The position numbers and the translations under genes are program-made. From Parcubacteria group bacterium (GTDB lineage Bacteria; Patescibacteriota; Minisyncoccia; Phycocordibacterales; CALRHW01), in the NCBI GenBank assembly GCA_943359555.1, contig CALRHW010000001.1, positions 2,718 to 66,717 of the forward strand: a stretch of 64,000 bases of DNA, read 5' to 3'. Position 1 is the first letter of the stretch. Every line of letters begins with the position of its first letter. The notes beneath the pieces were generated by a model, which had not been told where the DNA came from, searched no databases, and worked only from the letters and a program-made list of their open reading frames with translations. Positions 23,854-57,457 of the stretch are shown in pieces.

Positions 23854-24300
23854 ATGATATATGACATTGATGTTGCGATAATAAATTTTCTTCGAAAAAT
23901 AGCGATACCTGTGAGTCGCTTTGCGATTTTTGTGATATTTTTTTGGTTTGGTTTACTAAAAGTTATTGGCTTTAGTCCAGCCGAGGGTTTGGTGGAAAAT
24001 TTATTGCAAACAACAATGCCTTTCATAGAGCCTGCAACGTTTATGATCTATTTTGGACTTTTTGAAATGCTTATTGGAGTAATGTTTATTGTAAAAGGCC
24101 TTGAACGCGAAGTAATTCCCCTACTCGCTTTGCATATGTTTACAACTTTTATGCCTTTATTTCTTCTGCCCTCTATCATGTGGACTCAAGCTTTTGTGCC
24201 GACACTTGAAGGTCAATATATAATTAAAAACCTAGTGATTATTGCGACAGCAATAGGTATCGCGGCGCATTTGCGTCCGATGAAACAGAGAATTAATTAA
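23854..24300 (+). CDS. small 4-TM membrane protein
   Basis: Four hydrophobic helices. Confidence 0.5.
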   Translation: MIYDIDVAIINFLRKIAIPVSRFAIFVIFFWFGLLKVIGFSPAEGLVENLLQTTMPFIEPATFMIYFGLFEMLIGVMFIVKGLEREVIPLLALHMFTTFMPLFLLPSIMWTQAFVPTLEGQYIIKNLVIIATAIGIAAHLRPMKQRIN

Positions 24301-24324
24301 AAACAGGAAAATTATTTAATAAAG

Positions 24325-25569
24325 CTAAGCTTTCGTAATATCTCTAGGAGAAAACATATTCACTGTCCAATCAATAATAATTTTTATTCTGTTTGTCCAA
24401 GAAGCAAAATTGGCAAGGTAAACTGTACGCCACAACCACCACGCAAACACTCCGCTCCAAGTAATTCCGGCTATTTCCCCCACAGCCTTCCATGAGCCGA
24501 GCGAAACAAGACTTCCTTTAGATATATATCTAAATTTACTAAGTTTTTTCTCGTATATAGACGCTGAAATATTTTTTCCTGTGGCTTTTCCTTGTCTTGC
24601 TGCGACCTGTGCGAGCATTGGCAGTGACTTTCCGTCTTTTGTTATAAAAGCTGAAATGTCACCTAGTGCAAAAACGTGTTTAAAATTTTTAACGCGTAAA
24701 AATTCATCTGTAATGATTCTACCCGCTTTATCTTTTTCAACTTCTGGTAAAATTTCTATTGGAATCGGTTTTACTCCAGCAACCCACACAGTATTGAAAA
24801 CATCTACACTTGAACCGTCGGTAAAAGTGATTTTTTCTTTTGAAACATTTGTGACCATTTTATCCAAAAGTACTTTTATCCCTTTTTCGCGTAAAACTTT
24901 TAAAGATTCCTGCCTGATACCCGAGCTAAACATCGACAAAAGTTCTTTTCCACTGTTTATAAGATAAAGTGAAACGTCCCCCGCACAAATGTGCCCTTTA
25001 TAATATTTTCTAAAAGTATCAAAAAAGAAATCAGCCATTTCAGCAGCAAGCTCCACTCCAGTCGGACCTCCACCAATAATAGCAAAACTAAGCATCTTTT
25101 TACGTTCTTCTTCAAATGGAACAGTAGACGCTTCTTCAAAAAGTGAAATAAAATGATTGCGGAGTTTTATTGCATCAGCTAAATCTTTTAGAACAAAAGA
25201 GTTTTCTTGTGCACCAGCGACATCGCAAAAATTGGTCGTCGCGCCAAGCCCAATAACAAGATAATCAAACTCCACTCGCCCTTTATCTGTAAAAACTATT
25301 TTTTTTTCTAAATCTACTTTTCCTACTTCAGCAACTATTAAATCAGCAGGAGTTTTGTAAATAATGTTTCGCACAGATTCCACCACATGTCGCGGACCGA
25401 GGCCCCCAGTCGCCACCTCATGGAGCATTGGCGTAAAAAGAAAATAGTTGGTTTTGTTTATAAAAATAATTTCCACGTCTTTCTCGTGAACTCTTTTAAT
25501 AAGTGAGAGGTAAGTGTTGATACCAGCAAAACCCGCACCCAAAATAACTATTCTCTGTTTCTTCTTCAT
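24325..25569 (-). CDS. ndh: type II NADH dehydrogenase / FAD-dependent pyridine nucleotide-disulfide oxidoreductase
   Basis: N-terminal FAD fold RIVILGAGFAG and a second dinucleotide fold AIIGGGPTGVE. Length 414 aa. Confidence 0.8.
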   Translation of the reverse strand: MKKKQRIVILGAGFAGINTYLSLIKRVHEKDVEIIFINKTNYFLFTPMLHEVATGGLGPRHVVESVRNIIYKTPADLIVAEVGKVDLEKKIVFTDKGRVEFDYLVIGLGATTNFCDVAGAQENSFVLKDLADAIKLRNHFISLFEEASTVPFEEERKKMLSFAIIGGGPTGVELAAEMADFFFDTFRKYYKGHICAGDVSLYLINSGKELLSMFSSGIRQESLKVLREKGIKVLLDKMVTNVSKEKITFTDGSSVDVFNTVWVAGVKPIPIEILPEVEKDKAGRIITDEFLRVKNFKHVFALGDISAFITKDGKSLPMLAQVAARQGKATGKNISASIYEKKLSKFRYISKGSLVSLGSWKAVGEIAGITWSGVFAWWLWRTVYLANFASWTNRIKIIIDWTVNMFSPRDITKA

Positions 25570-25577
25570 AATATAGT

Positions 25578-26018
25578 TTATTGTAACAGAAATTTAAGAA
25601 CGCGGAAGTTTGTGGGATCTATTTCTACTTGTAAGTCTGTCTCGGCGTTTTGAAAGGTAGTGCTTGTGTAAAGAGTAATTGTTTCGCTAAAATGTATGAT
25701 GTCTTTTATAAAACACTCACTCTGAGATAAGCTGTTTCCATCATGCATCGTAATTGTTTCATTGCCTTCATAATTTACGTTTTCAGATATTTTTAGGCGG
25801 GCAATTTCCGTGCATGAAAAAGCAAATCTTTCACTTATTGTTTTTCTTTCGTGATCAAGTATTGCTAATCTTGCATAAAACCCAGCTTTACTTTGATCCA
25901 ACAGACTCATCATAAGCGTCATGGAAATAATAACCGAAGAAACGATTGTTATGTATCCTTTTTGCTTTTTTTCGTTGCGACTATTTGTGTTTTTTTGTAG
26001 TAATTTTATTTTAACCAT
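25578..26018 (-). CDS. possible minor pilin/pseudopilin-like protein (degenerate class III signal)
   Basis: Basic leader ...KKQKG followed by YITIVSSVIISMTLMMSLL. It lacks Phe+1 and Glu+5. Its position in the pilin cluster is the main support. Confidence 0.3.
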   Translation of the reverse strand: MVKIKLLQKNTNSRNEKKQKGYITIVSSVIISMTLMMSLLDQSKAGFYARLAILDHERKTISERFAFSCTEIARLKISENVNYEGNETITMHDGNSLSQSECFIKDIIHFSETITLYTSTTFQNAETDLQVEIDPTNFRVLKFLLQ

Positions 26019-26455
26019 ATTATTTTTTTAAACTTCATATTATTAATTAAAAAACTAAAATAAATACTGTGCATAGCATTTTTCTCTATTACCCGTGTAA
26101 ACTCTAGATTTTCTACAACCACATCAATAGTTGTAAGTGCCTGTGGTATTGATGTGTTTTTATCTGTCACAAGCCAAAGACGACTGTTTTTTAAATAAAT
26201 TTCAAAATTTAAAATGTCGTCTTGAGAAAGATCTTGTGTAAGCGGTGCCATTTTTTGTAAGACAAAATTTCCCTCCACTAGTGCATTTACATATTTGAAA
26301 AACCATTTGTTTCCATCTATTAGCTGAAATGTTGAAACCATAACTCCCGTTAGAAGAAGTGATGAAAGCCCGATATAAATAATTACCTCTATTAGGGTGA
26401 AGCCTTGCGCCCGCGCGTACGCGCGGGCGCCCCCTTTCTTTTTTATATTTTTCAT
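26006..26455 (-). CDS. type IV pilin-like protein (prepilin-type N-terminal methylation motif)
   Basis: AQG|FTLIEVIIYIGLSSLLL shows Gly-1, Phe+1 and Glu+5. Confidence 0.75.
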   Translation of the reverse strand: MKNIKKKGGARAYARAQGFTLIEVIIYIGLSSLLLTGVMVSTFQLIDGNKWFFKYVNALVEGNFVLQKMAPLTQDLSQDDILNFEIYLKNSRLWLVTDKNTSIPQALTTIDVVVENLEFTRVIEKNAMHSIYFSFLINNMKFKKIIWLK

Positions 26456-27966
26456 ATATTTTCTTGAAGAGATTTTATTTCATAAATTTTATTATCCAAC
26501 AACACATCCGAAGAACTGACACCATAAATAACTCCATCTTTTATATCCAGTGCCGACAATTTATGTGCAAATATTGCGGTAGAGATTTTTTTAATATTTT
26601 CTGGAGCAGAAGTGTCTAGAACGAAAAAACCTTTTGTAGAATCAGTGGTCGCGAGAAAAGCAATATTACTACTTACTATTATTTCACTAACACTTGATGC
26701 GGTGCCTGTAAGTGCTAAAAAACTCGTACCTAAAAGCGCAGGTGATGATGGCACAAAAACATCAATCATATAAAACTCCGGATTTGTCACCGTTCCCCTT
26801 TTTCGTCCGAGATAAATAGTGTTTCCTAGCAAATAAATACTAGTCGCATCTTTGTCATTTGGTGAGCTTGTGCCCGCATTAAATGAACCCATTTCAAATA
26901 TTGCAAGAGGGTTTTTTACATCCAACACGATGAGCTCCTTGCTGTTGGCGGAAGTTGCGAGATATGCAATATCATCACGGACAGCAATGCTGTTTATATT
27001 GTGAGTAATTTCTAAAAAACCAATTTCAATAGGATTTGCAGGAGATGCGACATCAAAAATATGAAACTCTGGTCCTGCTGTTTCTTTTGTTCCAATATAA
27101 ACTTTTGAATCAAAATATTTAATACTTCTGCCTTGCGGATAAGAGCCTTCTGAATTTACGAGCACCAAGCTTCTCTTTGCGATTAACGCCGGATTTGCTG
27201 TGTCACGCACATCAATCACCACAAACTGACTCGTAGTGGCGTTTATAACAGCAAAAACATAACCGTCCGCAAAATCAAAAGCAAAAATTCCTGCACCAAC
27301 ATCCAGCTCGGATATTTTTAAATTTGGTGTTTTTAAATCAAATATTGCAAGGTCGGAGTGTGTAATAATAGAACCGTCCGCAACATTCACAGTATCAAGA
27401 ATATCAGCTGAAATAAAAACTGTATCATCTACAACATCAGTGTCGGTGACATTTTTAAGTTCGGCAGAAAGTGAACTGTTTTCATAATTTATCCAATCTT
27501 GTGAAAAAAGTTCTTTGCCACTACACGCTTCGCCACTTTTTTTAACAAAAGCTGGATAAGAAAAAACTTGAGAAAAAAATGTGAAGCGTGGTGTGTTTTC
27601 CTGTAACCACTTTTCATTGACTGACATCTTTTTTATACACGGCGTAATATCAAGGACTTTAATTTTCTCATCGTAAAAATCATCTATTTTATTTTCGGCA
27701 TTAATGATCTGATTAAAATTTATTGACGTCTGGGCTTCGTTATCATTTTCCGAAGACATTATGAAAGTTTTTTCAAATACTTCTTCTGCACGCAATATTG
27801 AACCTAAATATAATTCACCATCTAACACCAGCGATTGTGCACCAAAAGAAACACTCGCCGCCGCAGACAGTGCTAAAGTCACAATTGCAAAAGCAATAAG
27901 TATTTCAAGTGTAGAAAATCCACGCAAAAACTTTGCTCTACTTTTTAATGTTTTGAGTAATTTCAT
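26452..27966 (-). CDS. prepilin-type N-terminal domain fused to LVIVD-repeat beta-propeller (candidate pilus-associated adhesin)
   Basis: LRG|FSTLEILIAFAIVTLAL prepilin motif. Repeated motifs FVVIDVRD, LIVLDVKN, FYMIDVFV and FFVLDTSA are typical of LVIVD propeller blades. Confidence 0.65.
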   Translation of the reverse strand: MKLLKTLKSRAKFLRGFSTLEILIAFAIVTLALSAAASVSFGAQSLVLDGELYLGSILRAEEVFEKTFIMSSENDNEAQTSINFNQIINAENKIDDFYDEKIKVLDITPCIKKMSVNEKWLQENTPRFTFFSQVFSYPAFVKKSGEACSGKELFSQDWINYENSSLSAELKNVTDTDVVDDTVFISADILDTVNVADGSIITHSDLAIFDLKTPNLKISELDVGAGIFAFDFADGYVFAVINATTSQFVVIDVRDTANPALIAKRSLVLVNSEGSYPQGRSIKYFDSKVYIGTKETAGPEFHIFDVASPANPIEIGFLEITHNINSIAVRDDIAYLATSANSKELIVLDVKNPLAIFEMGSFNAGTSSPNDKDATSIYLLGNTIYLGRKRGTVTNPEFYMIDVFVPSSPALLGTSFLALTGTASSVSEIIVSSNIAFLATTDSTKGFFVLDTSAPENIKKISTAIFAHKLSALDIKDGVIYGVSSSDVLLDNKIYEIKSLQENI

Positions 27967-29050
27967 ATATCGGAGTAATCACAGAAATAGCGACAAATCC
28001 CACAATCACACCCATTACAACCATCAATATCGGCTCAAGCGAGCTTCCGAGTTTTTTAATAATTTCATCAATCTCCCGCTCAAAATATTCTGAAATGTAA
28101 GTGGATACTTCTACGAGATTACCTGAAGATTCACCCACAGAGAGCATTTGGCTCACCATAAGTGGAAAAAGTACGGGTTTTGTCGCAAGAAAACGTGACA
28201 TAGGCATTCCTTTTGTGACAAACTCTGAAAGTATTAAATATTCTTTTTTATAAACAGCACCCATACAACTAAAAGAAATATTTTGTAATGCGTCTTTAAG
28301 TGGCACATTACTTTTTAATAAAAGTCCGAGTGTTCTAAATGTTTGCGTAACTTCATAATATTGCAACATTGTTCCAAATAGTGGGATTTTTAGACAAAAT
28401 AATTCAAATTGTATTCTAAACTTCTTATATTTTTTAAAACAGAAAATTGTCGCGAAAATCATAATTATAAACATTATCGCTAGATAGATTCCATACTCCA
28501 CAAGCACTTTATGAAATCCTAAAAGAATTCTTGTACTAAGCGGTAGTTTTGCATTTAAGCTAGAAAAAATCGGTGTGATTTTTGGTAGTATATATAGAGT
28601 AATCATTCCAGTTACGCCAATTGTAGCCACTCCAATACAAAGCGGATAAAATAATGCACCAATTATTTTTTGCCAAAGTAACTGTCTTTTTTTAAGTTCA
28701 ATTGAGACATGTTGTAGATTTGCACAAAGTGTCCCAGTCATTTCTCCAGTTTTGATAATTTGCACAGCGAGATTGTTAAATTTTGGGCTAGAGTGCATCA
28801 AACTCGTAGAAAGAAAATTCCCTTTTAAAACATCTGAAATAATATTGCGAAGCATTTTTTTCTCTTTTTCTTTCCGTGATTGAGCGAGAAGCATTTCTAA
28901 ACTTTGAGTGAGTGAAATCTCTGCGCCAACTAAAAAAGAAAGACGTGAAGTAAAATATGCTTGTTCGCGAAGCGAAAGCTGAGTGCCAAAAAAACCAAAT
29001 CCACCTAGCTTACGAAAGATTTTTTTCATATCAAATATTTTTTTAATCAT
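27938..29050 (-). CDS. pilC: type IV pilus/T2SS platform protein (PilC/GspF family)
   Basis: Two GspF repeats with three TM, and an N-terminal cytoplasmic domain LSLREQAYFTSRLSFLVGAEISL. Confidence 0.8.
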   Translation of the reverse strand: MIKKIFDMKKIFRKLGGFGFFGTQLSLREQAYFTSRLSFLVGAEISLTQSLEMLLAQSRKEKEKKMLRNIISDVLKGNFLSTSLMHSSPKFNNLAVQIIKTGEMTGTLCANLQHVSIELKKRQLLWQKIIGALFYPLCIGVATIGVTGMITLYILPKITPIFSSLNAKLPLSTRILLGFHKVLVEYGIYLAIMFIIMIFATIFCFKKYKKFRIQFELFCLKIPLFGTMLQYYEVTQTFRTLGLLLKSNVPLKDALQNISFSCMGAVYKKEYLILSEFVTKGMPMSRFLATKPVLFPLMVSQMLSVGESSGNLVEVSTYISEYFEREIDEIIKKLGSSLEPILMVVMGVIVGFVAISVITPIYEITQNIKK

Positions 29051-30266
29051 GAAGACATCTAAAAATTTCTTCTATGGTAGTCAGACCCATCTCTACTTTC
29101 CGTAAACCATCTACGACAAGTGACACCATTCCATTATTCATCGCGATATTTTTTATTTGCACCGCAGACAGACGAGCCACTATCGCATCACGAATAAGAT
29201 CATCAACAACGAGTATTTCGTTTACCACAACCCTACCGTTATAACCACTATGCGCACAATTTTCGCAACCAATTCCATAAAAAGCATTTTGTAAATCGTG
29301 ACCGTAAAGATTGTGCAGTGTTTCTTTTTCTGCCATAGACATTGGACGCGCCACCTTACAATGCACGCAAATTTTCCTAACCAAACGTTGGGCAATCACA
29401 AGACGTAAAGTAGACGCGACTAAAAACGGCTCTATTCCCATATCAAGAAAACGTGGAATAGCAGTAGCACAATCCACGGTGTGTAAAGTAGAAAGCAACA
29501 AGTGCCCAGTTAAAGCCGTGTTGATTGCAATCTGAGCGGTTTCATTGTCGCGAATTTCTCCCACCATTATAATGTCTGGATCTTGTCGTAAAATAGAACG
29601 TAGCCCATTTGCAAAAGTGAGACCGACACGTGGCTGTGTTTGAATTTGTTTTATCCCAGCGAGAGCGTATTCAATAGGATCTTCAATAGTGATTATTGAA
29701 TTTTCTTTTCGGTTTAATAGTCTGACGAGTGTATATAGAGTCGTCGTTTTCCCCGAACCTGTCGGACCCGTCATTAGTATCATTCCGTTTTGTCTTTTTA
29801 TTTCGCGCAAAATATTTTCTTCATCACTCGCCAAAAAACCTAGACCAGAAAGTGTATTGTCCCCTAAAGTATTTTTGAGTAAACGCAAAACAACACTTTC
29901 TCCATAATGTGTCGACACAAAAGAAATCCGCACATCAAAAGACGTGTTTTCTAAAGAATAACGAAAACGTCCGTCTTGTGGAGTTTTTTGCTCATCGGTG
30001 CGTAGATTTGAAATAATTTTTAAACGCAAGACAACCTTAGAAAAAATGTTATGAGAAAAAGTAGATATGTCACACAACATTCCATCAACACGAAAACGAA
30101 TTCTTATTGACTCTTCGCTTGGGTGTAAATGAATATCTGAAGCACGCAAAAAAAACGCATCTTCTAAAATTGCATTTACAAAATCAATAACAAAAATGTC
30201 TGGAGCACGAGCGAGCTCACTGGTAATTTTTAGCTCGCGTGCAATTTTTAAATTTTTCACAAACAC
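29043..30266 (-). CDS. pilB: type IV pilus assembly ATPase, PilB/GspE family (short form lacking N1 domain)
   Basis: Walker A LMTGPTGSGKTTT, Asp/His boxes, and tetracysteine CVHC...CENC. Confidence 0.8.
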   Translation of the reverse strand: MFVKNLKIARELKITSELARAPDIFVIDFVNAILEDAFFLRASDIHLHPSEESIRIRFRVDGMLCDISTFSHNIFSKVVLRLKIISNLRTDEQKTPQDGRFRYSLENTSFDVRISFVSTHYGESVVLRLLKNTLGDNTLSGLGFLASDEENILREIKRQNGMILMTGPTGSGKTTTLYTLVRLLNRKENSIITIEDPIEYALAGIKQIQTQPRVGLTFANGLRSILRQDPDIIMVGEIRDNETAQIAINTALTGHLLLSTLHTVDCATAIPRFLDMGIEPFLVASTLRLVIAQRLVRKICVHCKVARPMSMAEKETLHNLYGHDLQNAFYGIGCENCAHSGYNGRVVVNEILVVDDLIRDAIVARLSAVQIKNIAMNNGMVSLVVDGLRKVEMGLTTIEEIFRCLHD

Positions 30267-30301
30267 TCAGATGAGTGTCACAAAGTAGTACAGTTTACTA
30301 A

Positions 30302-30901
30302 TTATATATTCCCGCGAGTTTTTGTGCAATAATCATTCATCACGATTCCCGCAGCGACGGCTACATTGAGTGAACGCACACTCCCAAACTGAGAAATCTC
30401 CACGACATGATGACATTTATTTAAAATTTCTTTAGAAATTCCACCACTCTCTTGACCAAAAATTATTAAAGTCTTTTGTGCAGGATTCCATTTAAAATCT
30501 GTAAGTGGGACAGCACCTGTGTTATTTTCCACCGCAACTACAACATCATATTCTGCAAAAATAGTATCTATATCTTCTGTAAATTTAATGTGTCTGAAAT
30601 ATTCATAAAATTCTGAGCCTACGCTTGCTCTGCGGTCAAAAGTTTTGTGTCCATATAAAATTATTTCACTTGCACCAAATGCGTTTGCACTACGCACGAT
30701 GTTTCCTGCGTTATTGTCATACAAAAGATTCATAATAAGCACGCCATAATTTAACTTTTGCTCGGCAAGATATTTTTTCACTTCTTCGTCAGTAAGCCAT
30801 TTTAAATAATCCGCACGGTTGCGTGGTTTGTTTTGATCATAAGAAAGCGTCTTTGATTTAAATTCAAAAGAGCCAAGTTTTTTAGGATTTTCTTTTTTCA
30901 T
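30302..30901 (-). CDS. SpoU/TrmH-family (SPOUT) RNA 2'-O-methyltransferase
   Basis: SPOUT motifs NAGNIVRSANAFGASEIIL, LIIFGQESGGIS and SLNVAVAAGIVM. Confidence 0.75.
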   Translation of the reverse strand: MKKENPKKLGSFEFKSKTLSYDQNKPRNRADYLKWLTDEEVKKYLAEQKLNYGVLIMNLLYDNNAGNIVRSANAFGASEIILYGHKTFDRRASVGSEFYEYFRHIKFTEDIDTIFAEYDVVVAVENNTGAVPLTDFKWNPAQKTLIIFGQESGGISKEILNKCHHVVEISQFGSVRSLNVAVAAGIVMNDYCTKTRGNI

Positions 30902-30925
30902 AATTAAAAACTAAATTAGAAAAAA

Positions 30926-31459
30926 TCAAAGTTCAGTTTTTACTTCAACATTGTGCTGACTGAAAATTATTTTTCTTACATGCTCTGGGTTTCTGACAGC
31001 TTTCATAGAAAATTCACTGCTATCTTCCGCAGCTGTTTGCACTCTTATATCACCAAAATGAAACATTGTCGCAATCACACCACTCACTTCAATACTTATG
31101 TCTTGAATTTTATCAAAACGAAGATTTGAAACCTCTCTACGAAAAATAGCTTTTTGTTCTACGTCAATAATTCTTTTTTGCGTCACATACCAAACGTCTA
31201 AAAAATATTTGGTCCACTCAATAAAGAAAAAAATCCACAAAAACAAAAGCCATACATAATAAAAAAATTTTAATAAAAATTCGTACTCCGTAAAAATACC
31301 CTGAATTGGCAAAAAATTGTATTTAAAAACAACAAACCTAATTACAATCGGAATAATAACTCCAAGTGCCGTGATAAAGACTATACCTAAAAGTACAAAC
31401 CAGTGTTTGCGCACTTCTAAAATTACTGATTCTCCGTGTTCTAAATCTAGATTAAGCAT
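30926..31459 (-). CDS. membrane protein with bacterial PH (YdbS/YdbT-like, DUF304) domain
   Basis: Two TM followed by a PH-like beta segment. The EHGESVILEVRKHWF N-terminus is typical of bPH_2. Confidence 0.5.
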   Translation of the reverse strand: MLNLDLEHGESVILEVRKHWFVLLGIVFITALGVIIPIVIRFVVFKYNFLPIQGIFTEYEFLLKFFYYVWLLFLWIFFFIEWTKYFLDVWYVTQKRIIDVEQKAIFRREVSNLRFDKIQDISIEVSGVIATMFHFGDIRVQTAAEDSSEFSMKAVRNPEHVRKIIFSQHNVEVKTEL

Positions 31460-31808
31460 GGTTTATAAAAGCTATAATTGAAGAATAAGCGAGCGAAACA
31501 ATTTCAACTGACACAACAAGGTAAACTATTTCTGCGAGTATTACTTTTGGATTATTCCGTCCGTATCTTTCCCAATGGAAAATAAGGACGGAGGAAAAGA
31601 CGGCAAAAAGCACGCAAACAAAGACAAAAACCCACCATATTGTACCACGGTTGACATGTGCGAGTATTACTGGCAAAAAATCTAAACCGATAGGATTGTT
31701 CATCTTGGTGTTATTATACCAACTTTTATCGCCTGAAACAAACCTATCGCGTCGACTATGCACGACGTATGGATTGACTCTTTTAAATTTTCCTGCTTTA
31801 CTAGACAT
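31452..31808 (-). CDS. hypothetical membrane protein
   Basis: Two hydrophobic helices. Overlaps the downstream gene by 8 nt. Confidence 0.4.
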   Translation of the reverse strand: MSSKAGKFKRVNPYVVHSRRDRFVSGDKSWYNNTKMNNPIGLDFLPVILAHVNRGTIWWVFVFVCVLFAVFSSVLIFHWERYGRNNPKVILAEIVYLVVSVEIVSLAYSSIIAFINHA

Positions 31809-31836
31809 TCAACTTAAATTTTAACCTTATAAACAA

Positions 31837-33594
31837 ATGGAAATCCGAAATATCGCAATCATCGCCCACGTGGATCATGGCAAAACGACGCTCACAGACG
31901 CTTTAATGAAGCAAGCAGGTGTCGCTGAGGAAGGAGCTACTATGGACTCAAACGCGCTAGAGCTAGAACGCGGTATTACTATTTATGCAAAAAATACATC
32001 CATTTTTTATAAAGATACAAAAATCAACATTGTGGATACACCAGGTCATAGCGACTTCGGCTCAGAAGTAGAGCGTGTGCTTCGTTCTATAGATACAGTA
32101 CTTCTCGTGGTGGACGCGCAAGAAGGTCCAATGCCTCAGACACGTTTTGTACTTAAAAAATCCCTAGAACTAGGACTAAAACCGATAGTTGTTATAAACA
32201 AAATAGACAAACCTGCGTCTAGATGTAAAGAAGTAGCCGACGAAGTGCTTGAATTATTTTTTGACCTCGGTGCAAATGACGAGCAAATGAATTTCACTAT
32301 CTTGTATGCAATCGGTCGCGAAGGTATAGCAAAAATGAAAATTGAAGATGAATCAAAAGATTTAACTCCCCTTCTTGAAACTATTTTGCGTGAGGTGCCT
32401 CCAGCAAAAAACGACACGAGTGCGCCACTCCGCATGCAAACTTTTAACCTCGGTTATGACAATTTTCTAGGACGTCTTGCTGTGTGCCGTGTGTATGAAG
32501 GAAAAGTAAAAGTGGGCGACCCGCTCATCGTAAAACGTGTAGACGGCACAAGTTATACTGGGAAACTTATTAAAATTTTTACATTTGAGGGCGTGTCAAA
32601 AAAAGAAATTACAGAGGCTGTCGCTGGCGACATTGTGATGATTGCTGGGTTGCCTCAGATTTATATCGGCGAAACTATTTGCGTTTCCGTAGAACAAGAA
32701 GCACTGCCCGCGATTAAAATTGACGAGCCGACAATTTCTCTAAACTTTTTTGTAAATGATTCGCCGTTTGCTGGACGTGAAGGAAAATTTGTAACAGGTC
32801 GCCAAATTCGTGAACGTCTTGAAAAAGAACTAGAAATAAACGTCGGACTGAAAATAAATTTTGATAAAGGCGACAAGTTTGAAGTATATGGACGAGGAGA
32901 GCTCCATATTGCTATTTTGCTAGAAAATATGCGACGCGAAGGTTTTGAACTCCAAGTGTCTCAACCAAACGTAATTTTGAAAGAAGTTGGTGGTGAGACT
33001 CTTGAACCTTTTGAAGAAGTAATTGTAGATGTGCCTGCGGAATCTTCTGGTGCTGTTATCGCACGACTCGGCGAGCGAAAAGGTATTATTACAAATATGA
33101 AAGATGCGCACGGACATCAGAGAATAGTTTTTGAAATACCTACACGCGGACTGCTCGGTTATCGCGGACAATTTGTGATTGATACAAAAGGTGAAGGAAT
33201 TATTTCTAGCAGATTTACAGAATTTAAACCGCACGTTGGAGAAATAAAAAAACAAGCTTATGGTTCTATGGTTTCAATGACTGGTGGAAAGGCGCTTGCG
33301 TTTTCACTTTGGAATTTACAAGAACGTGGCGTGCTTTATATAGCGCCTACTGTAGAAGTATATGAAGGAATGATTATCGGAAATGTTACAAAGGGCGACA
33401 CGATGTTTGTAAATCCTACAAAAGGCAAACAGCTCACAAATATGCGCGCGTCTGGCTCTGACGAAGGAATTTTCCTTGTTCCACCTTTTAAACTTACAAT
33501 AGAACGCGCGATGGAAATAATGGCAGAAGATGATTTTATTGAAATTACTCCGGGAAGCGTGCGACTCCGAAAAAAAGATTGGAAGGAGAAATAG
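31837..33594 (+). CDS. typA: translational GTPase TypA/BipA
   Basis: IAIIAHVDHGKTTLTDAL G1 box, DTPGHSDF, NKID, and a BipA-type C-terminal domain. Length 585 aa. Confidence 0.9.
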   Translation: MEIRNIAIIAHVDHGKTTLTDALMKQAGVAEEGATMDSNALELERGITIYAKNTSIFYKDTKINIVDTPGHSDFGSEVERVLRSIDTVLLVVDAQEGPMPQTRFVLKKSLELGLKPIVVINKIDKPASRCKEVADEVLELFFDLGANDEQMNFTILYAIGREGIAKMKIEDESKDLTPLLETILREVPPAKNDTSAPLRMQTFNLGYDNFLGRLAVCRVYEGKVKVGDPLIVKRVDGTSYTGKLIKIFTFEGVSKKEITEAVAGDIVMIAGLPQIYIGETICVSVEQEALPAIKIDEPTISLNFFVNDSPFAGREGKFVTGRQIRERLEKELEINVGLKINFDKGDKFEVYGRGELHIAILLENMRREGFELQVSQPNVILKEVGGETLEPFEEVIVDVPAESSGAVIARLGERKGIITNMKDAHGHQRIVFEIPTRGLLGYRGQFVIDTKGEGIISSRFTEFKPHVGEIKKQAYGSMVSMTGGKALAFSLWNLQERGVLYIAPTVEVYEGMIIGNVTKGDTMFVNPTKGKQLTNMRASGSDEGIFLVPPFKLTIERAMEIMAEDDFIEITPGSVRLRKKDWKEK

Positions 33595-37190: not shown

Positions 37191-37985
37191 ATGGAGAAAA
37201 GTTTACTTACAATTCCGCTTGCAATAATCATCGCTGGAGCTATCATTGCTGGAGCTTTAGTTTATAGTAATAAAAATAAAAGTGTTGCGACAATCACAGA
37301 CCTAACACCAAAAAAAGAAGCTGTCGATATAAAAATAAGGCCTATTGATATGTCTGACCACATCCTTGGAAATCCAGACTCAAAGGTTTTACTAGTGGAA
37401 TATTCAGACACACAGTGTCCTTTTTGTAAAACTTTCCATGTAACTTTAAACAAACTTGCTTCAGAATATGGAAAAGATGGAAATTTTACTTGGGTTTATC
37501 GACATTTTCCTTTAGATGCACTTCATAAAAAAGCTAGGAATGAAGCAGGGGCTCTGGAATGTGCAGCTGACCTTGGTGGCAATAGTAAGTTTTGGGAATA
37601 TACAAATAAACTTTACGAAACTACAAAATCAAATGATAATCTTGACCCAGCGGAACTTCCAAAAATCGCCGCTGCAGTAGGATTGGATGTAAAAGCTTTC
37701 AACACCTGTTTAGCTAGTGGTAAATTTGCAGGAGCGGTAGACGAGGACGCAAAAGAAGCACAAAAAAATGGCGGAACTGGAACACCTTATAGTATGTTTG
37801 TTTTAAAATCAGATCCAAGTAAAGAGCTGAGAGATTTTTTAGAGTCTAATAATGCTCAAATAATGAAATCCTATCCGGGCTCCGATGATTTTATAGGAAT
37901 ATCAAAAGATAATAGGAAAATATTTGTGAGTGGTGCAATGCCTTACGAAATGATGAAAGCGATCGTGGATTTGATTTTGAAATAA
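37191..37985 (+). CDS. DsbA-family thiol:disulfide oxidoreductase with N-terminal TM anchor
   Basis: CPFC active site in a thioredoxin fold. Confidence 0.8.
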   Translation: MEKSLLTIPLAIIIAGAIIAGALVYSNKNKSVATITDLTPKKEAVDIKIRPIDMSDHILGNPDSKVLLVEYSDTQCPFCKTFHVTLNKLASEYGKDGNFTWVYRHFPLDALHKKARNEAGALECAADLGGNSKFWEYTNKLYETTKSNDNLDPAELPKIAAAVGLDVKAFNTCLASGKFAGAVDEDAKEAQKNGGTGTPYSMFVLKSDPSKELRDFLESNNAQIMKSYPGSDDFIGISKDNRKIFVSGAMPYEMMKAIVDLILK

Positions 37986-50253: not shown

Positions 50254-50793
50254 TTAAACTTGTGGAGCTTCAGCTGGAGTTTCTGCTTTTACTTCTGGTT
50301 CAGGAGTGGAAGTAGGAACAACTTCAGGAGCTGGTGTTGCTTCAGGAGTCACTTCAGCAACTGGAGCTGGAGCAACGACTTCGGGAGCACTCGCTTCCGC
50401 AGATGCAGGTGCAGGTGCGACGGTTGCCTCCGTAGCCACAGCTGGCACAACAGTCGCCTCAGCGGTCGCAATCGGCGCAACGCTTGCAACAGGCACCTCA
50501 CTTACCTCTTTTGCGATTGGTTTTTTCTTTGGCAAAACGTTTACTTTTTTTCCTTCAATAATTTTTCTCGAAACGAGTAAATTGTGAACTGTTCCAGAAA
50601 GTTGCGCACCCACAGACATCCAGTGCTTTATTCTATCGTTTTTAAACTCCGCTTTTTCGCCACGACGAGAATCGTACGCACCTAAAGTCTCTAAAGTTTT
50701 TCCACTTTTTGGACCATTTTTAGAATCAGATAAAACAAGCCGAAATGTCGGTTCGTGCTTTCTGCCTACTCTTTGTAATCTAATTTTTAACAT
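50254..50793 (-). CDS. rpsP: 30S ribosomal protein S16 with ~115-aa Ala/Pro/Glu/Val-rich C-terminal extension
   Basis: MLKIRLQRVGRKHEPTFRLV is a canonical bS16 N-terminus. The low-complexity tail is APEVVAPAPVAEVTPEATPAPEVV... Confidence 0.85.
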   Translation of the reverse strand: MLKIRLQRVGRKHEPTFRLVLSDSKNGPKSGKTLETLGAYDSRRGEKAEFKNDRIKHWMSVGAQLSGTVHNLLVSRKIIEGKKVNVLPKKKPIAKEVSEVPVASVAPIATAEATVVPAVATEATVAPAPASAEASAPEVVAPAPVAEVTPEATPAPEVVPTSTPEPEVKAETPAEAPQV

Positions 50794-50873
50794 GGCGATT
50801 ATCTTAACAGAAGCGATTGATTTGGTCAAACGCCATTTGGTCAAAACGCGCGCTTCTGATATAGTTTTTACAA

Positions 50874-52829
50874 ATGCCAAAAAAGGTTTCCGGTCATATC
50901 AAAATTACTTCAAAGGTCATCGGGTATCTGCCAGTAGACGGCGTGCTAGAAGATATTGAAATACAAACAAGCGGATTAAAAACAGCGCTCAACGACGACG
51001 AGGTGGAAGTCGCGCTTCTTCCCATTGTAAAAGGTATTCGCCAGCAAGGTGAGGTAATGAAAATAATAAAACGCGCACGAATGGAGTTTGTGGGAACGAT
51101 AGAAAAAGTGGATGTGGAAAAAGTAGGGGGCGATTTTTTCCTCGTACCAGACGATAAAAAGTTTTATCGCGATATTTTGGTGCCTGCTTCTAGTGCTCTC
51201 AACGCACAAGACGGCGACAAAGCTTTCGTCCACATTACAGAATGGAAAGATATGGAAAGTCGGCCTCGTGGCGAAGTGCTTCGTGTGCTTGGAAAAAAGG
51301 GGGTGCACGATGTGGAAATGCAATCCATCGTTTTAGAAAAAGGTTTTGATACTGACTTTTTGCCTGAAGTAGAGGAAGATGCAAAAAAAGCTGCGACCAC
51401 GGCACGCGAAAATTTTGCGCAAGAAATTGCACGCCGAAAAGATTTTCGTGACACGACTACTTTTACTATTGATCCTGTGGACGCAAAAGATTTTGATGAT
51501 GCTATATCTTTTAAAGAACTCGCGGATGACGACTACGAAATAGGGGTGCATATTGCAGATGTGTCGCATTTCGTAACTGAAGGCACTGTACTTGACAAGG
51601 AAGCGCGCAAACGTGGCTTTTCTGTGTATCTCGTAGACCGCACAATTCCTATGCTTCCAGAAGAGCTTTCAAATGACATGTGTAGTTTAAATCCACACGA
51701 AGATAAGCTGGCTTTTTCAGCGGTTTTTGTAATGAGTAAAGATGGCAAAGTTAAAGAAAAGTGGTTTGGAAAAACTGTCATCAATTCAAACAAAAGATTT
51801 ACTTATGAAAATGCTATGGAGAGTATAAATACTGTGAAAGACGGTGTGAGTGGAACAGGCGAATTTTCAAAAGAGTTAAATATTTTAAATAAAATCGCAA
51901 AAATTTATCAAGAAGAAAGACGGATAAACGGCGCGATAGATTTTGAGACGGATGAAGTACGTTTTCAACTTGACGCTGATGGTGTGCCGATAAGTGTTTA
52001 CAGAAAAGAGCGTCTTGATACTCACAAACTCGTAGAAGAATTTATGCTTCTCGCCAATCGCGAAGTAGCTGAAGTGGTTTTTAAAGTAAATGAAAAAAGT
52101 AAAGACGGCCGAGCGTTTATTTACCGTATTCACCCTGAACCAAACGTAGAAAAAATAGAAAACTTGTCTATATTTTTAAAAGCTCTGGGTTTTGAGCTCA
52201 AGAGCAAAAACGGCAACGTAACTTCAAAAGACATAAATGCGATGTTACAAAAAATAGCTGGCTCGCCCGCAGAATCTTTAATTAAAACTGCAACTATTCG
52301 CTCAATGGCAAAAGCTATTTATTCTACAAAAAATGTTGGGCACTTTGGTTTGGGTTTTGAATTTTACACACATTTCACTTCCCCAATTCGTCGTTATCCA
52401 GATCTTATCGTGCACAGACTTTTGCAACGTCAGCTTGTCGGAGGAAAGGTAGCGCAAGATGAATTCGTAAAATATGAAAAAATTTCTATGGACGCGAGTG
52501 AAAAAGAAATTTCTGCTGCAGAAGCCGAACGTGCATCAATAAAATACAAGCAAGTAGAATATATGAGCAAACGAGTTGGTCAAGAATTTGAGGGCACGAT
52601 TTCTGGAGTTACAGAATGGGGTATTTATGTAGAAGAGGTTACTTCAAAAAGTGAAGGAATGATAAAACTCCGTGATATGAAAGATGATATGTATGAGCTT
52701 GATGAAAAAAATTACGCTATTATCGGCGTACGTACTGGTAAAAAATATTCTCTTGGTGATAAAATAAAATTTAAGGTGATGAGTGCGGATTTAAATAAAA
52801 AAATACTGGATTTTGCACTTGTTCAGTAA
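50874..52829 (+). CDS. rnr: ribonuclease R / RNase II-family 3'-5' exoribonuclease
   Basis: RNB catalytic domain (TIDPVDAKDFDDAIS; GVHIADVSHFV), N-terminal cold-shock-like domain and C-terminal S1 domain. Confidence 0.85.
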   Translation: MPKKVSGHIKITSKVIGYLPVDGVLEDIEIQTSGLKTALNDDEVEVALLPIVKGIRQQGEVMKIIKRARMEFVGTIEKVDVEKVGGDFFLVPDDKKFYRDILVPASSALNAQDGDKAFVHITEWKDMESRPRGEVLRVLGKKGVHDVEMQSIVLEKGFDTDFLPEVEEDAKKAATTARENFAQEIARRKDFRDTTTFTIDPVDAKDFDDAISFKELADDDYEIGVHIADVSHFVTEGTVLDKEARKRGFSVYLVDRTIPMLPEELSNDMCSLNPHEDKLAFSAVFVMSKDGKVKEKWFGKTVINSNKRFTYENAMESINTVKDGVSGTGEFSKELNILNKIAKIYQEERRINGAIDFETDEVRFQLDADGVPISVYRKERLDTHKLVEEFMLLANREVAEVVFKVNEKSKDGRAFIYRIHPEPNVEKIENLSIFLKALGFELKSKNGNVTSKDINAMLQKIAGSPAESLIKTATIRSMAKAIYSTKNVGHFGLGFEFYTHFTSPIRRYPDLIVHRLLQRQLVGGKVAQDEFVKYEKISMDASEKEISAAEAERASIKYKQVEYMSKRVGQEFEGTISGVTEWGIYVEEVTSKSEGMIKLRDMKDDMYELDEKNYAIIGVRTGKKYSLGDKIKFKVMSADLNKKILDFALVQ

Positions 52830-55856: not shown

Positions 55857-56549
55857 TTACCACCCCTTTTTTTCAAGTCCTTTTCTTGCCGCCTCTTGTT
55901 CTGCGTCTTGTTTTGATTCACCTTCGCCAGAAGCTACGAGATTTTTACCGAGATATACGCCCACGGTAAATCTTTTATCATGGTCTGGTCCAGTTTCTTT
56001 TGTTGTTTTATAGGCAGGGGTAGTGCTTTCCCTTTCCTGCGCTTTTTCTTGAAATAAACTTTTTGAATCTATCCAAGTGCCTTTTGAAATAATGTCCCCG
56101 ATAAGTGGCGAAATATTTTTGTAAATGAATTCTTTTACAACCTCATATCCTTGGTCTACATAAATAGCGCCGATTATTGCTTCAAGTGTGTTTGCTAAAA
56201 TATATTGTCGTGCGCGACCAGTATCTTTCATTTCTCCGCGAGATAAAAGTAAAAAGTCATTTACAAAAAGAGACGTCGCCACGCGCGCGCAAGTCGTCGC
56301 GTTTACAAGTGCACTGCGGAAGCTCGTCATCTGACCTTCATTTGATCCAGGGTATTCTTTGTATAAATAATCTGTAATTACAAGCTCCAGCACCGCATCA
56401 CCTAAAAATTCCAAGCGTTCGTTGTGTTCAAGTCCAGAGTCTTTGTTTTCATTTATATATGAACGATGAACAAACGCTTGTTTCAGTAGCGTTTTGTCGC
56501 GGAATTTTAATCCAGCTTTTTCTTCAAATTTTGAGAAGTTTATGTTCAT
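55857..56549 (-). CDS. rnc: ribonuclease III
   Basis: ERLEFLGDAVL signature and a C-terminal dsRBD. Confidence 0.9.
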   Translation of the reverse strand: MNINFSKFEEKAGLKFRDKTLLKQAFVHRSYINENKDSGLEHNERLEFLGDAVLELVITDYLYKEYPGSNEGQMTSFRSALVNATTCARVATSLFVNDFLLLSRGEMKDTGRARQYILANTLEAIIGAIYVDQGYEVVKEFIYKNISPLIGDIISKGTWIDSKSLFQEKAQERESTTPAYKTTKETGPDHDKRFTVGVYLGKNLVASGEGESKQDAEQEAARKGLEKKGW

Positions 56550-57457
56550 TTCGCGTCTTTGGTGTCCCCAAGTAGTATGTTTATAGCCTTGGTTATAGTC
56601 GGCAGAATATCATTATAAAAATTAAGGTCAAGTATGTCGGCAAGTTTAAACCAACGCACATCATCTAGTCCACCGCTTTCTTTTAATTTTATTTCTTCAA
56701 ATTTTGACTCGGCAAGGTAGTAATGCACCTGCTTTTTTATCTTCCCTTTCTCTGGATCAAAAGCGATATATGCATTATTACCGAGTTCTTCTTTTACATT
56801 TATATTGAGTCCGAGCTCGTCTTTTATAACACGTTTTATTCCAGCTATATCTTCTTCTCCTTCTTCAAAATGACCCTTTGAAAGTGTCCAATGTCCGAAA
56901 ACATCGTGCACAAGAGCGAGATAAATGTCATCGCCATCTTTTCCAAAAACGACAGCTCCTCCGAGTTTTTCTATCGGCGCTTGGTCATCTGGAATGTCTG
57001 GATGACGCTTTCTTTTTGAAGTCTCGTCTTTACCCGGCTCGCCCATTTCTTTATATACCGCACCGAGGACGCCGTTTACAAACTTTCCACTCGTATCCCC
57101 ACCAAAAGTCTTTGCAAGCTCAATTGCCTCGTTTATAGCCACTTTTGGGGGCACTTCTTTTCTGTCAGCAAAAAGAAGCTCGTAAAGTCCAATGCGCAAA
57201 ATGTTGCGGTCAATAATAGAAATTTTATCAATTGGCCAATCTGGCGCAGCTTTTTCTATAATCACGTCCAAATCCTTTTTCTTTGCAACGACATTCTTCA
57301 TCAAGTTTTCCATGAATGCCAAATCACCCGTTCCAGTAGCAAACTCTGAAGCGTTGCGTTCAAAAATATCCATAGCCTCCTTAGCACTTTTTTTATTGAA
57401 ATCCCATTCAAAAAGTGATTGTGTGACTATTGATCTTGATAAATGCCTGTTTGCCAT
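56546..57457 (-). CDS. nusB: NusB-like antitermination domain fused to a C-terminal Nudix hydrolase domain
   Basis: NusB core (AINEAIELAKTFGGDTSGKFVNGVLGAV), then a Nudix box GHFEEGEEDIAGIKRVIKDELGL. Confidence 0.7.
   Translation of the reverse strand: MANRHLSRSIVTQSLFEWDFNKKSAKEAMDIFERNASEFATGTGDLAFMENLMKNVVAKKKDLDVIIEKAAPDWPIDKISIIDRNILRIGLYELLFADRKEVPPKVAINEAIELAKTFGGDTSGKFVNGVLGAVYKEMGEPGKDETSKRKRHPDIPDDQAPIEKLGGAVVFGKDGDDIYLALVHDVFGHWTLSKGHFEEGEEDIAGIKRVIKDELGLNINVKEELGNNAYIAFDPEKGKIKKQVHYYLAESKFEEIKLKESGGLDDVRWFKLADILDLNFYNDILPTITKAINILLGDTKDAK

What the first reader, a model, noticed from the sequence alone, without database searches (positions are those of the whole stretch)
26452..27966. 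Prepilin-type leader fused to an LVIVD-repeat beta-propeller: candidate pilus-presented adhesin
The N-terminus LRG|FSTLEILIAFAIV is a textbook class III (prepilin) signal with Phe+1 and Glu+5. The remaining ~450 aa contain at least four LVIVD-like blade motifs (FVVIDVRD, LIVLDVKN, FYMIDVFV, FFVLDTSA) separated by regular spacing, which implies a beta-propeller displayed on a pilin stalk. Organisms with reduced genomes often depend on type IV pili to attach to host cells, so this could be the attachment determinant. It sits between pilC and a canonical small pilin.
Basis: partly seen in the sequence, partly recalled or inferred. Interest (0 to 1): 0.55.

Follow-up and report, generated by a model that had tools for sequence, protein, structure and literature searches.

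The report
Pilus subunit carrying a beta-propeller head
This gene encodes a type IV pilus subunit with a seven-bladed beta-propeller fused to it, probably shown at the pilus tip of an ultra-small Parcubacteria bacterium to grip an outside target; this architecture has already been catalogued, but no function has been tested for it.

Summary

The gene is translationally coupled to pilB and pilC upstream and to two small pilin-like genes downstream, one of which lacks Glu+5. This order recurs in about 30 Patescibacteria loci, and the family has at least about 90 clusters at 50% identity.

My best reading is a modular minor pilin that joins the tip or priming complex and presents the propeller as a binding module. 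The suggested host-specificity signature was not found. The propeller is more conserved than the pilin head, blades 3-5 are the most constrained part, and dN/dS is 0.13.

The pilin+LVIVD architecture is already listed in a 2021 census of modular pilins. A propeller-bearing minor pilin (PilX2) promotes host binding in Saccharibacteria. I rate this a new member of a known kind, with function untested.

The parts
29043..30266 (-). pilB/gspE-type assembly ATPase (407 aa); first gene of the coupled block
   Evidence: Pfam T2SSE E 2.3e-118. NCBIfam GspE 478 bits and PilB 444 bits, both below their equivalog cut-offs. Its stop overlaps the pilC start by 8 nt. It lies upstream of the LVIVD gene in every related locus where upstream DNA is available.
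27938..29050 (-). pilC/gspF-type platform protein (370 aa)
   Evidence: Pfam T2SSF E 3.6e-39 with two stretches. NCBIfam GspF 247 bits. Its 3' end overlaps the LVIVD-pilin start by 29 nt.
26452..27966 (-). The finding: a modular minor type IV pilin with a C-terminal seven-bladed LVIVD beta-propeller (504 aa)
   Evidence: There are 84 full-length homologues, all from Patescibacteria/Parcubacteria. AlphaFold2 pLDDT 92, pTM 0.88.
27919..27966 (-). Leader peptide, residues 1-16, ending in Gly16 (predicted prepilin-peptidase cleavage site G|F)
   Evidence: Read from the sequence. G16 is kept in 93% of 75 homologues, while leader length and sequence vary. Cleavage itself is inferred.
27754..27918 (-). 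Pilin alpha1 helix, residues 17-71, with Glu21 (= +5)
   Evidence: The model has a helix at 18-71. E21 is kept in 96% of homologues. Residues 17-71 are 100% identical to the 88% orthologue, with dN/dS 0.01.
27487..27753 (-). Globular pilin head, residues 72-160: a four-stranded antiparallel sheet (90-136) plus a conserved Cys110/Cys148 pair (probable disulfide)
   Evidence: secondary structure. C110 is kept in 85%, C148 in 97%, W120 in 92% and W158 in 91% of homologues. The disulfide is inferred.
26455..27486 (-). Seven-bladed LVIVD beta-propeller, residues 161-504. Blades 3-5 (about 248-397) are the most conserved, and E300 and G387 are invariant
26006..26455 (-). 149-aa minor pilin (G|FTLIEVIIYIGL, Glu+5); its start overlaps the LVIVD stop by 4 nt
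   Evidence: Pfam N_methyl 25.9 bits against a cut-off of 21.2. The same gene position, with the same 'IYIAL' signature, follows the LVIVD gene in 23 aligned sequences (window + 22 related loci).
25578..26018 (-). 146-aa pilin-like protein without Glu+5 (KG|YITIVSSVIISM); candidate tip-capping subunit, analogous to GspK/PilX
   Evidence: Aligned homologues occupy the same operon position in 19 related loci (the alignment has 20 sequences including the window). None has Glu at +5. G21, R50, C69 and C102 are invariant. There is no Pfam hit. The capping role is inferred from what is known of T2SS GspK and T4aP PilX.

Best explanation
The 504-aa protein is a modular minor type IV pilin. A prepilin peptidase encoded outside this window would cut after Gly16. 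The hydrophobic alpha1 helix, with Glu+5, would then dock the protein into a small complex with the co-encoded minor pilins. These are the 149-aa pilin and the 146-aa protein that lacks Glu+5; most relatives carry a further small pilin upstream. The complex would form on the PilC platform, be driven by the PilB ATPase, prime filament growth and end up at the filament tip. The seven-bladed LVIVD propeller is fused to the pilin head and would therefore be displayed at the tip of the pilus, where it binds an external ligand on a host cell or surface. It would be a covalently fused counterpart of the PilY1 propeller and of Saccharibacteria PilX2. Shown here: the sequence motifs, their conservation, the predicted fold and the operon structure. 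Inferred: cleavage, incorporation into a filament, tip location and ligand binding.
For: Pilin identity: the class III motif is present with G-1 and E+5 kept in 93% and 96% of homologues. Among the 101 cluster representatives of 700 aa or less in the exhaustive search, 92 carry the motif. The model shows a 54-residue N-terminal helix, a four-stranded sheet and then a propeller, at pLDDT 92 and pTM 0.88.

Operon: the five genes pilB, pilC, LVIVD-pilin, the 149-aa pilin and the 146-aa gene overlap by 4-29 nt. The order pilB - pilC - small pilin - LVIVD-pilin - small pilin - pilin lacking Glu+5 (- candidate major pilin) recurs in about 26-30 loci across Parcubacteria lineages at 26-55% identity. 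A set of minor pilins that includes one without Glu+5 is the hallmark of the GspH-K / FimU-PilVWX priming and tip complexes (established knowledge).

Precedents: modular pilins present grafted modules on pili, and PilB of S. sanguinis is a proven adhesin (PMC8179133). TM7x PilX2, a minor pilin with a seven-bladed propeller, is needed for efficient host binding but not for filament extrusion (PMC11623550).

Selection: purifying selection (dN/dS 0.135) shows the gene is functional.
Against: There are no experimental data for any member of this family.

No prepilin peptidase, major pilin, PilT or PilMNO gene lies in the 64-kb window.

The Pfam N_methyl model does not hit the window protein and hits only 9 of 75 relatives.

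Foldseek with the pilin-module model found no solved pilin.

The propeller shows no hypervariable surface of the kind expected for a host-range determinant. Its conserved blades could instead be a protein-protein interface inside the tip complex.

Glu+5 is retained, so this protein is probably not the very first (capping) subunit.
Confidence: 0.55

Rival explanations
1. The propeller has a structural or priming role only. It does not bind an outside ligand. It stabilises or primes the minor-pilin initiation complex, or acts as a stopper that keeps the tip from being pulled back through the cell wall, much as PilY1 is needed to prime T4aP assembly in Myxococcus.
For: The gene is a fixed member of the core pilB-pilC-minor-pilin operon in every relative examined. 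The propeller is more conserved than the pilin head, and blades 3-5 are nearly invariant. dN/dS is 0.05-0.13 there, which fits a conserved protein-protein interface better than a host-facing surface.
Against: In TM7x the propeller-bearing PilX2 is dispensable for filament extrusion but needed for binding. Related pilins carry several tandem propellers and reach 1998 aa, which is hard to explain by a priming role alone. Priming and binding do not exclude each other.
Confidence: 0.2
2. The protein is a DNA receptor of a competence-type pilus. The operon would build a Com-like or T2SS-like short filament used for DNA uptake, on which nucleotide-auxotrophic Patescibacteria depend, and the propeller would capture DNA.
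Confidence: 0.12
3. The protein is an enzyme on a stalk. The propeller would be catalytic, for example a hydrolase or lyase acting on the host envelope, and the pilus would deliver it.
For: E300 is invariant, and H302, D349, R388, Q247 and Y290 are nearly invariant. A weak profile match exists to a beta-propeller haloalkylphosphorus hydrolase (5hrm, E 0.026). The 2021 census lists modular pilins with peptidase modules.
Against: The 5hrm match is not significant. The conserved E/Q-hhhhD and Y-L-A-T positions recur in each blade, so they look like structural repeat positions. No enzyme family was hit in Pfam or NCBIfam.
Confidence: 0.05
4. The protein is not a pilin. It would be a surface propeller held in the membrane by an uncleaved N-terminal anchor helix that merely resembles a class III signal.
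For: The Pfam N_methyl model misses the window protein. Foldseek found no pilin match for the N-terminal module. No prepilin peptidase gene is in the window.
Against: G-1 and E+5 are kept in 93% and 96% of homologues while the leader varies freely. The gene is embedded among pilB, pilC and other pilins in about 30 loci. The helix-plus-sheet topology with a conserved Cys pair is pilin-like.
Confidence: 0.06

Closest known systems
Modular type IV pilins (Raynaud et al. 2021, PMC8179133), e.g. S. sanguinis PilB (pilin + vWA) and PilC (pilin + lectin). The census includes the architecture IPR012902-IPR013211 (pilin motif + LVIVD repeats)
   Same: A small N-terminal pilin module carries a bulky C-terminal domain that is not specific to pili. 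The pilin+LVIVD combination is already listed, with about 30 proteins in seven architecture rows, and the paper mentions an 860-aa Candidatus Falkowbacteria protein. IPR013211 is the LVIVD repeat entry.
   Different: The census lists domain strings only. No structure, operon context or function has been described for LVIVD pilins. The window protein would probably escape such a census, because the N_methyl profile does not detect it. Its module is a propeller, not a vWA or lectin domain.
PilX2 of Nanosynbacter lyticus TM7x (Saccharibacteria), thin T4P-2 pilus (PMC11623550)
   Same: It is a Patescibacteria minor pilin with a C-terminal seven-bladed beta-propeller, encoded in a pilus locus. Its deletion lowers host binding without loss of filaments. 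This is the closest functional precedent.
   Different: The PilX2 propeller has RCC1 repeats, not LVIVD repeats, and PilX2 is reported to lack a predicted PilD signal. The window protein has a conserved G|FxxxE motif. The two come from different classes (Saccharimonadia and Paceibacteria/Parcubacteria). I did not test homology between them.
PilY1 / PilC tip adhesin of type IVa pili (IPR008707, PF05567)
   Same: It is a seven-bladed propeller associated with the minor-pilin tip and priming complex, and it acts in adhesion (as described in PMC8179133 and PMC11623550).
Core minor (pseudo)pilin sets GspH-I-J-K (T2SS) and FimU-PilV-W-X (T4aP)
   Same: The minor-pilin genes are clustered and translationally coupled next to the assembly genes. 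One member lacks Glu+5, as GspK and PilX do, and one is enlarged by an extra domain, as GspK is (own knowledge of these systems).
   Different: The enlarged member here keeps Glu+5, and its extra domain is appended at the C-terminus rather than inserted. Sequence similarity is limited to the N-terminal helix (XpsI E 0.019). Which of the H, I or J positions it corresponds to could not be settled.
LVIVD-repeat cell-surface proteins (PF08309; Adindla et al. 2004, PMC2447325) and choice-of-anchor B proteins (TIGR04312)
   Same: They share the repeat family and the predicted propeller fold, and they are typically surface-located.
   Different: Those proteins use Sec signals and other anchors, such as S-layer, sortase-type or dockerin anchors. 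The pilin anchor is the distinguishing feature here.

Membership tests
Type IV pilin (class III signal peptide proteins) | A short polar leader ending in Gly, Glu at +5 of the mature protein, and about 20 hydrophobic residues | tested here: met
   The sequence is LRG|FSTLEILIAFAIVTLALSAA. G16 is kept in 93% and E21 in 96% of 75 homologues. The motif is present in 92 of 101 independent cluster representatives.
Type IV pilin (class III signal peptide proteins) | A match to the N-terminal methylation profile (PF07963 / TIGR02532 / IPR012902) | tested here: inconclusive
   The window protein has no PF07963 hit at E<=1, and 9 of 75 family members hit at E<=0.01. The profile is 24-27 residues long and is known to miss divergent pilins.
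Type IV pilin (class III signal peptide proteins) | The 'lollipop' fold: an extended alpha1 helix of about 50 residues packed on an antiparallel beta-sheet | tested here: met
   AlphaFold2 gives a helix at 18-71 and four strands at 90-136 in both the full-length model and the module-only model. However, Foldseek with the module-only model found no significant solved pilin, so the fold is judged from topology only.
Type IV pilin (class III signal peptide proteins) | Cleavage and N-methylation by a prepilin peptidase (PilD / Peptidase A24) encoded in the genome | not testable with these tools
   No such gene was found among the ORFs scanned in the 64-kb window or within +/-10 kb in L001 and L003. 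The rest of the genome is not available.
Type IV pilin (class III signal peptide proteins) | Genetic linkage to a type IV filament assembly ATPase and platform protein | tested here: met
   T2SSE and T2SSF genes lie directly upstream and overlap. The linkage is conserved in about 30 loci.
LVIVD-repeat beta-propeller (PF08309) | A Pfam score above the gathering threshold | tested here: met
   28.8 bits against 20.2, E 7.5e-7. 66 of 75 homologues hit, best E 1.7e-22.
LVIVD-repeat beta-propeller (PF08309) | Tandem repeats of about 42 residues that fold into a propeller | tested here: met
Modular type IV pilin (sensu Raynaud et al. 2021) | An N-terminal pilin module plus an additional domain not specific to pilus biology | tested here: met
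   Pilin module at residues 1-160 and LVIVD propeller at 161-504. The pilin+LVIVD architecture is listed in their Dataset S1.
Modular type IV pilin (sensu Raynaud et al. 2021) | Incorporation into the filament and a direct role of the module in a pilus function | not testable with these tools
   This requires purification of pili or genetics in a cultured host-symbiont pair.
PilY1/PilC tip adhesin (PF05567 / IPR008707) | A PilY1-type C-terminal propeller domain | tested here: not met
Core minor pilin set (GspH-K / FimU-PilVWX type) | A cluster of minor pilin genes, including one that lacks Glu+5, next to the assembly genes | tested here: met
   One search gives the operon maps of 26 loci. One search shows that none of the 20 aligned sequences (window plus 19 loci) of the last pilin-like gene has Glu+5.
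Core minor pilin set (GspH-K / FimU-PilVWX type) | Sequence or structural homology to GspH/I/J/K or FimU/PilV/W/X | tested here: inconclusive
   Only a sub-threshold XpsI (GspI) match over the helix, E 0.019. PDB profile searches hit only pilin N-termini. Foldseek was negative.

The most novel reading that the evidence does not exclude
The LVIVD-propeller pilin may be the universal tip device of the main pilus of Parcubacteria/Paceibacteria, one of the largest uncultured bacterial groups. Because blades 3-5 are nearly invariant across the class, it would recognise one conserved ligand, such as DNA or a common cell-envelope polymer, rather than host-specific receptors. It would be a single-polypeptide fusion of the 'minor pilin + PilY1' pair, and it would give a concrete, expressible handle on how these organisms seize hosts or nutrients.
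Probability: 0.2. Interest if true: 0.6.

Novelty: new member of a known kind. Interest (0 to 1): 0.4.

Why it matters
Parcubacteria/Paceibacteria are abundant, almost entirely uncultured, and thought to live attached to other cells. How they attach is unknown. This family gives a specific candidate: a soluble domain of about 340 residues that could be expressed, is predicted with high confidence, and is fixed in the core pilus operon of many lineages. It could be used for binding assays, as bait to identify hosts, or as a tip marker for cryo-ET. The conservation pattern found here argues against a rapidly evolving host-range determinant, which narrows the hypotheses worth testing. The concept itself is not new, since modular pilins and a propeller-bearing minor pilin adhesin in Saccharibacteria are already described.

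Tried and rejected
1. Foldseek against afdb50: the library was not available.

2. Pilin sub-class: I built a pilin-module-only model (residues 1-162, pLDDT 85.6) to decide whether the module is GspH-, I- or J-like. Foldseek against the PDB gave no significant match and no pilins, so the sub-class is undetermined.

3. PDB profile searches: searches with the full family, the pilin module and the two neighbouring pilin families returned only weak matches to pilin N-terminal helices and chance hits.

4. Homologue search for the 146-aa protein: only 2 sequences were found. I built its family from the syntenic loci instead.

5. Host-specificity signature (variable loops, diversifying selection): not found. 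The dN/dS estimate rests on a single pair.

6. PilY1 homology: rejected.

7. Enzyme reading through the 5hrm hydrolase match: E 0.026, not significant.

8. Other pilus genes in the window (major pilin, pilD, pilT, pilMNO): none found by the motif scan or by Pfam scans of 35 ORFs.

9. Literature: no paper in the library links LVIVD to Patescibacteria pili by name. The first genome-contig scan, using the 75-sequence alignment, failed for lack of a conserved stretch. It worked with the 12 closest sequences.

10. Promoter and terminator scan of 24000-32200: counts were at chance level. The best promoter-like site lies just upstream of pilB, at 30328-30301.

Full report
**1. Observation**

The ORF is exactly as described: 26452..27966 on the minus strand, ATG start, 504 aa. 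Its N-terminus, MKLLKTLKSRAKFLRG|FSTLEILIAFAIVTLALSAA, has the three elements of a class III (prepilin) signal. These are a polar leader ending in Gly, Glu at +5, and a hydrophobic stretch of about 20 residues.

A database search returned 84 homologues. Nearly all are 450-520 aa long and cover more than 85% of the query, and those that carry a name are Parcubacteria, Paceibacterota or Patescibacteria MAG proteins. In a 75-sequence alignment the leader varies freely in length and sequence, yet G16 and E21 are kept in 93% and 96% of sequences. Position +1 varies (F, S, V, I, G, M), as is usual for minor pilins.

Three more of the same type lie at 206, 301 and 493, giving seven repeats spaced 42-53 residues apart. 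Pfam LVIVD (PF08309) scores 28.8 bits against a curated cut-off of 20.2, and 66 of 75 relatives hit it, best E 1.7e-22.

**2. Structure**

AlphaFold2 with the family alignment gave a confident model (pLDDT 92.0, pTM 0.88). It has three parts:
- a helix at residues 18-71;
- a four-stranded antiparallel sheet at 90-136 with two short helices;
- about 30 strands from 161 to 499.

Cys110 and Cys148 are kept in 85% and 97% of sequences, which suggests a pilin-type disulfide. A DsbA-like gene lies in the window at 37191-37985.

A separate model of residues 1-162 reproduced the same topology (pLDDT 85.6). It found no significant solved relative. I therefore cannot say which classical minor pilin it corresponds to.

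**3. Context**

On the minus strand the genes run in this order:
- pilB (29043-30266; T2SSE, E 2.3e-118);
- pilC (27938-29050; T2SSF);
- the LVIVD pilin;
- a 149-aa pilin (26006-26455; N_methyl above its cut-off);
- a 146-aa protein (25578-26018).

Successive genes overlap by 8, 29, 4 and 13 nt. The 146-aa protein has a pilin-like N-terminus, KG|YITIVSSVIISM, but no Glu at +5.

A scan of one genome per species found 35 Patescibacteria loci, plus two distant non-pilin LVIVD proteins. Wherever upstream DNA is present, pilB and pilC precede the LVIVD gene. The ORF maps of 26 loci show a fixed order: pilB - pilC - small pilin (G|FTLIE) - LVIVD pilin - small pilin (G|FTLIE..IYIAL) - pilin-like protein of about 130-150 aa without Glu+5. 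This is often followed by a 145-170-aa pilin with a very conserved G|FTLIEILVVIGI N-terminus, which is a candidate major pilin. In the alignment of the Glu+5-less protein (20 sequences: the window plus 19 loci) none has Glu+5, and G21, R50, C69 and C102 are invariant.

The window lineage and its 88%-identical relative, a Lake Baikal Parcubacteria MAG (L001/L005), lack the first small pilin. In them an NDH-2 gene follows the operon. No other pilin, prepilin peptidase, pilT or pilMNO gene lies in the 64-kb window, which is otherwise housekeeping: uvrABC, rpoBC, rpoD, dnaG, dnaE, tgt, bipA, hisS and others.

**4. Size of the family**

An exhaustive profile search of 1.84 billion cluster representatives gave 52,134 hits at E<=1e-3 and 9,995 at E<=1e-30. 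Most of these are LVIVD propellers in general. Among the best 150, 101 new representatives are 700 aa or shorter, and 92 of those carry the class III motif. Several longer proteins (800-1998 aa) combine the pilin N-terminus with several propellers. Proteins of 2,000-6,000 aa with 10-20 propeller stretches but no pilin motif also appear.

**5. Test of the host-specificity idea**

Column conservation (1 minus normalised entropy, with a gap penalty) averaged as follows:

| Region | Mean conservation |
|---|---|
| alpha1N | 0.57 |
| Globular pilin head | 0.34 |
| Propeller, overall | 0.45 |
| Propeller strands | 0.49 |
| Propeller loops | 0.41 |

- **Most conserved part.** This is 288-390 (blades 3-5), including the loop and strand GTKETAGPEFHIFDV and the GRKR motif. 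E300 and G387 are invariant.
- **Insertions and deletions.** These cluster in blades 1-2 and a few loops. The window lineage has private insertions at 72-83 and 192-202.
- **Selection.** Against the 88% orthologue, dN/dS is 0.135 for the gene, 0.01 for the helix, 0.20 for the pilin head, 0.05-0.13 for blades 3-5 and 0.14-0.23 for blades 1, 2 and 7.

There is no sign of diversifying selection, although this rests on one pair. Many of the conserved residues recur at equivalent positions in each blade (E/Q before the hhhhD strand, and Y-L-A-T in the preceding strand). Part of the signal is therefore structural.

**6. Mechanism**

The best-supported reading is a modular minor pilin. It would be cleaved after Gly16, assembled through its alpha1 helix with the co-encoded minor pilins on the PilC platform, and left at the tip when PilB polymerises the major pilin, so that the propeller is exposed at the filament end. 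The following are inferences from established knowledge of T2SS and T4aP minor-pilin complexes: cleavage, the capping role of the Glu+5-less subunit, and the tip location.

A binding role for the propeller is inferred from two precedents:
- modular pilins, including S. sanguinis PilB, a proven adhesin (PMC8179133);
- TM7x PilX2, a Saccharibacteria minor pilin with a seven-bladed RCC1 propeller, whose loss halves host binding without loss of filaments (PMC11623550).

Four rivals remain:
- a purely structural or priming role, favoured by the conservation pattern;
- a DNA receptor on a competence-type filament, because PilB and PilC score best as GspE and GspF and no pilT is nearby;
- a pilus-borne enzyme;
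- a non-pilin membrane anchor.

**7. Comparison and novelty**

The domain combination is not new. Raynaud et al. 2021 list IPR012902 followed by one to thirteen IPR013211 entries, about 30 proteins across seven architecture rows, and mention an 860-aa Candidatus Falkowbacteria example. IPR013211 is the LVIVD repeat entry. Those entries are only domain strings.

I found no paper in the searchable library that names LVIVD pilins in Patescibacteria or describes their structure or operon. What this analysis adds:
- a confident seven-blade model;
- the fixed position of the gene within a minor-pilin set that includes a Glu+5-less member;
- the breadth of the family across Parcubacteria lineages;
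- a conservation pattern that argues against a fast-evolving host-range determinant.

The protein is not a PilY1 family member, because that test was run and not met, although it may work like a PilY1 fused to a pilin.

Verdict: a real feature, correctly spotted, and a new member of a known kind. Its function is untested and its interest is moderate.

Noticed in passing
window 26407-26430: A perfect 10-bp, all-G/C palindrome with a 4-nt loop, GCGCCCGCGCGTACGCGCGGGCGC, sits in a 35% GC region. It is the only such element in the window. It lies 22 nt downstream of the LVIVD-gene stop, inside the leader-peptide codons (GARAYARAQ) of the 149-aa pilin. It is identical in the 88% relative L001 although the flanking codons differ, and it is absent from more distant loci. 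It may be an mRNA hairpin that affects translation or stability of the downstream minor-pilin genes.
   Followed up: partly
window 25578-26018 (-): This 146-aa pilin-like protein lacks Glu+5 and has no Pfam hit. Its family has invariant G21, R50, C69 and C102 and always ends the minor-pilin block. It is a candidate tip-capping subunit, analogous to GspK/PilX but much smaller.
   Followed up: partly
window 27938-27966, compared with L006-L039: In the window and its closest relative, pilC overlaps the LVIVD gene directly. Almost all other relatives have an extra small pilin gene (110-180 aa, G|FTLIE) between the two, and many have a candidate major pilin (G|FTLIEILVVIGI) after the block. Both are missing here, so this lineage runs a reduced set or encodes them elsewhere.
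   Followed up: partly
proteins P0085-P0218: Among the best profile hits are giant proteins of 2,000-6,000 aa with 10-20 LVIVD-propeller stretches. There are also pilin-headed proteins with several propellers: P0085 (1998 aa), P0090 (1266 aa), P0100, P0174 and P0185. Their organisms and contexts were not examined.
   Followed up: no
window 56546-57457 (-): A single 303-aa ORF combines a NusB domain (residues 7-136) with a NUDIX hydrolase domain (168-281). This fusion looked unusual to me.
   Followed up: no
window 37191-37985 (+): A DsbA/thioredoxin-like protein (264 aa) is encoded about 9 kb from the operon. It may be relevant because both the LVIVD pilin (C110/C148) and the 146-aa protein (C69/C102) have conserved cysteine pairs.
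   Followed up: no
window 50254-50880 (-): The ribosomal protein S16 ORF is 208 aa long, but the S16 domain covers only residues 37-95. The opposite strand (50306-50587) reads as a low-complexity Ala/Gly/Thr/Ser ORF, which suggests a long low-complexity C-terminal extension on S16.
   Followed up: no
window 29043-30266 (-): PilB is only 407 aa long and aligns to the C-terminal two thirds of the GspE and PilB models (model positions 103-484 of 486 and 174-561 of 564). It therefore lacks the N-terminal domains of classical PilB/GspE.
   Followed up: no
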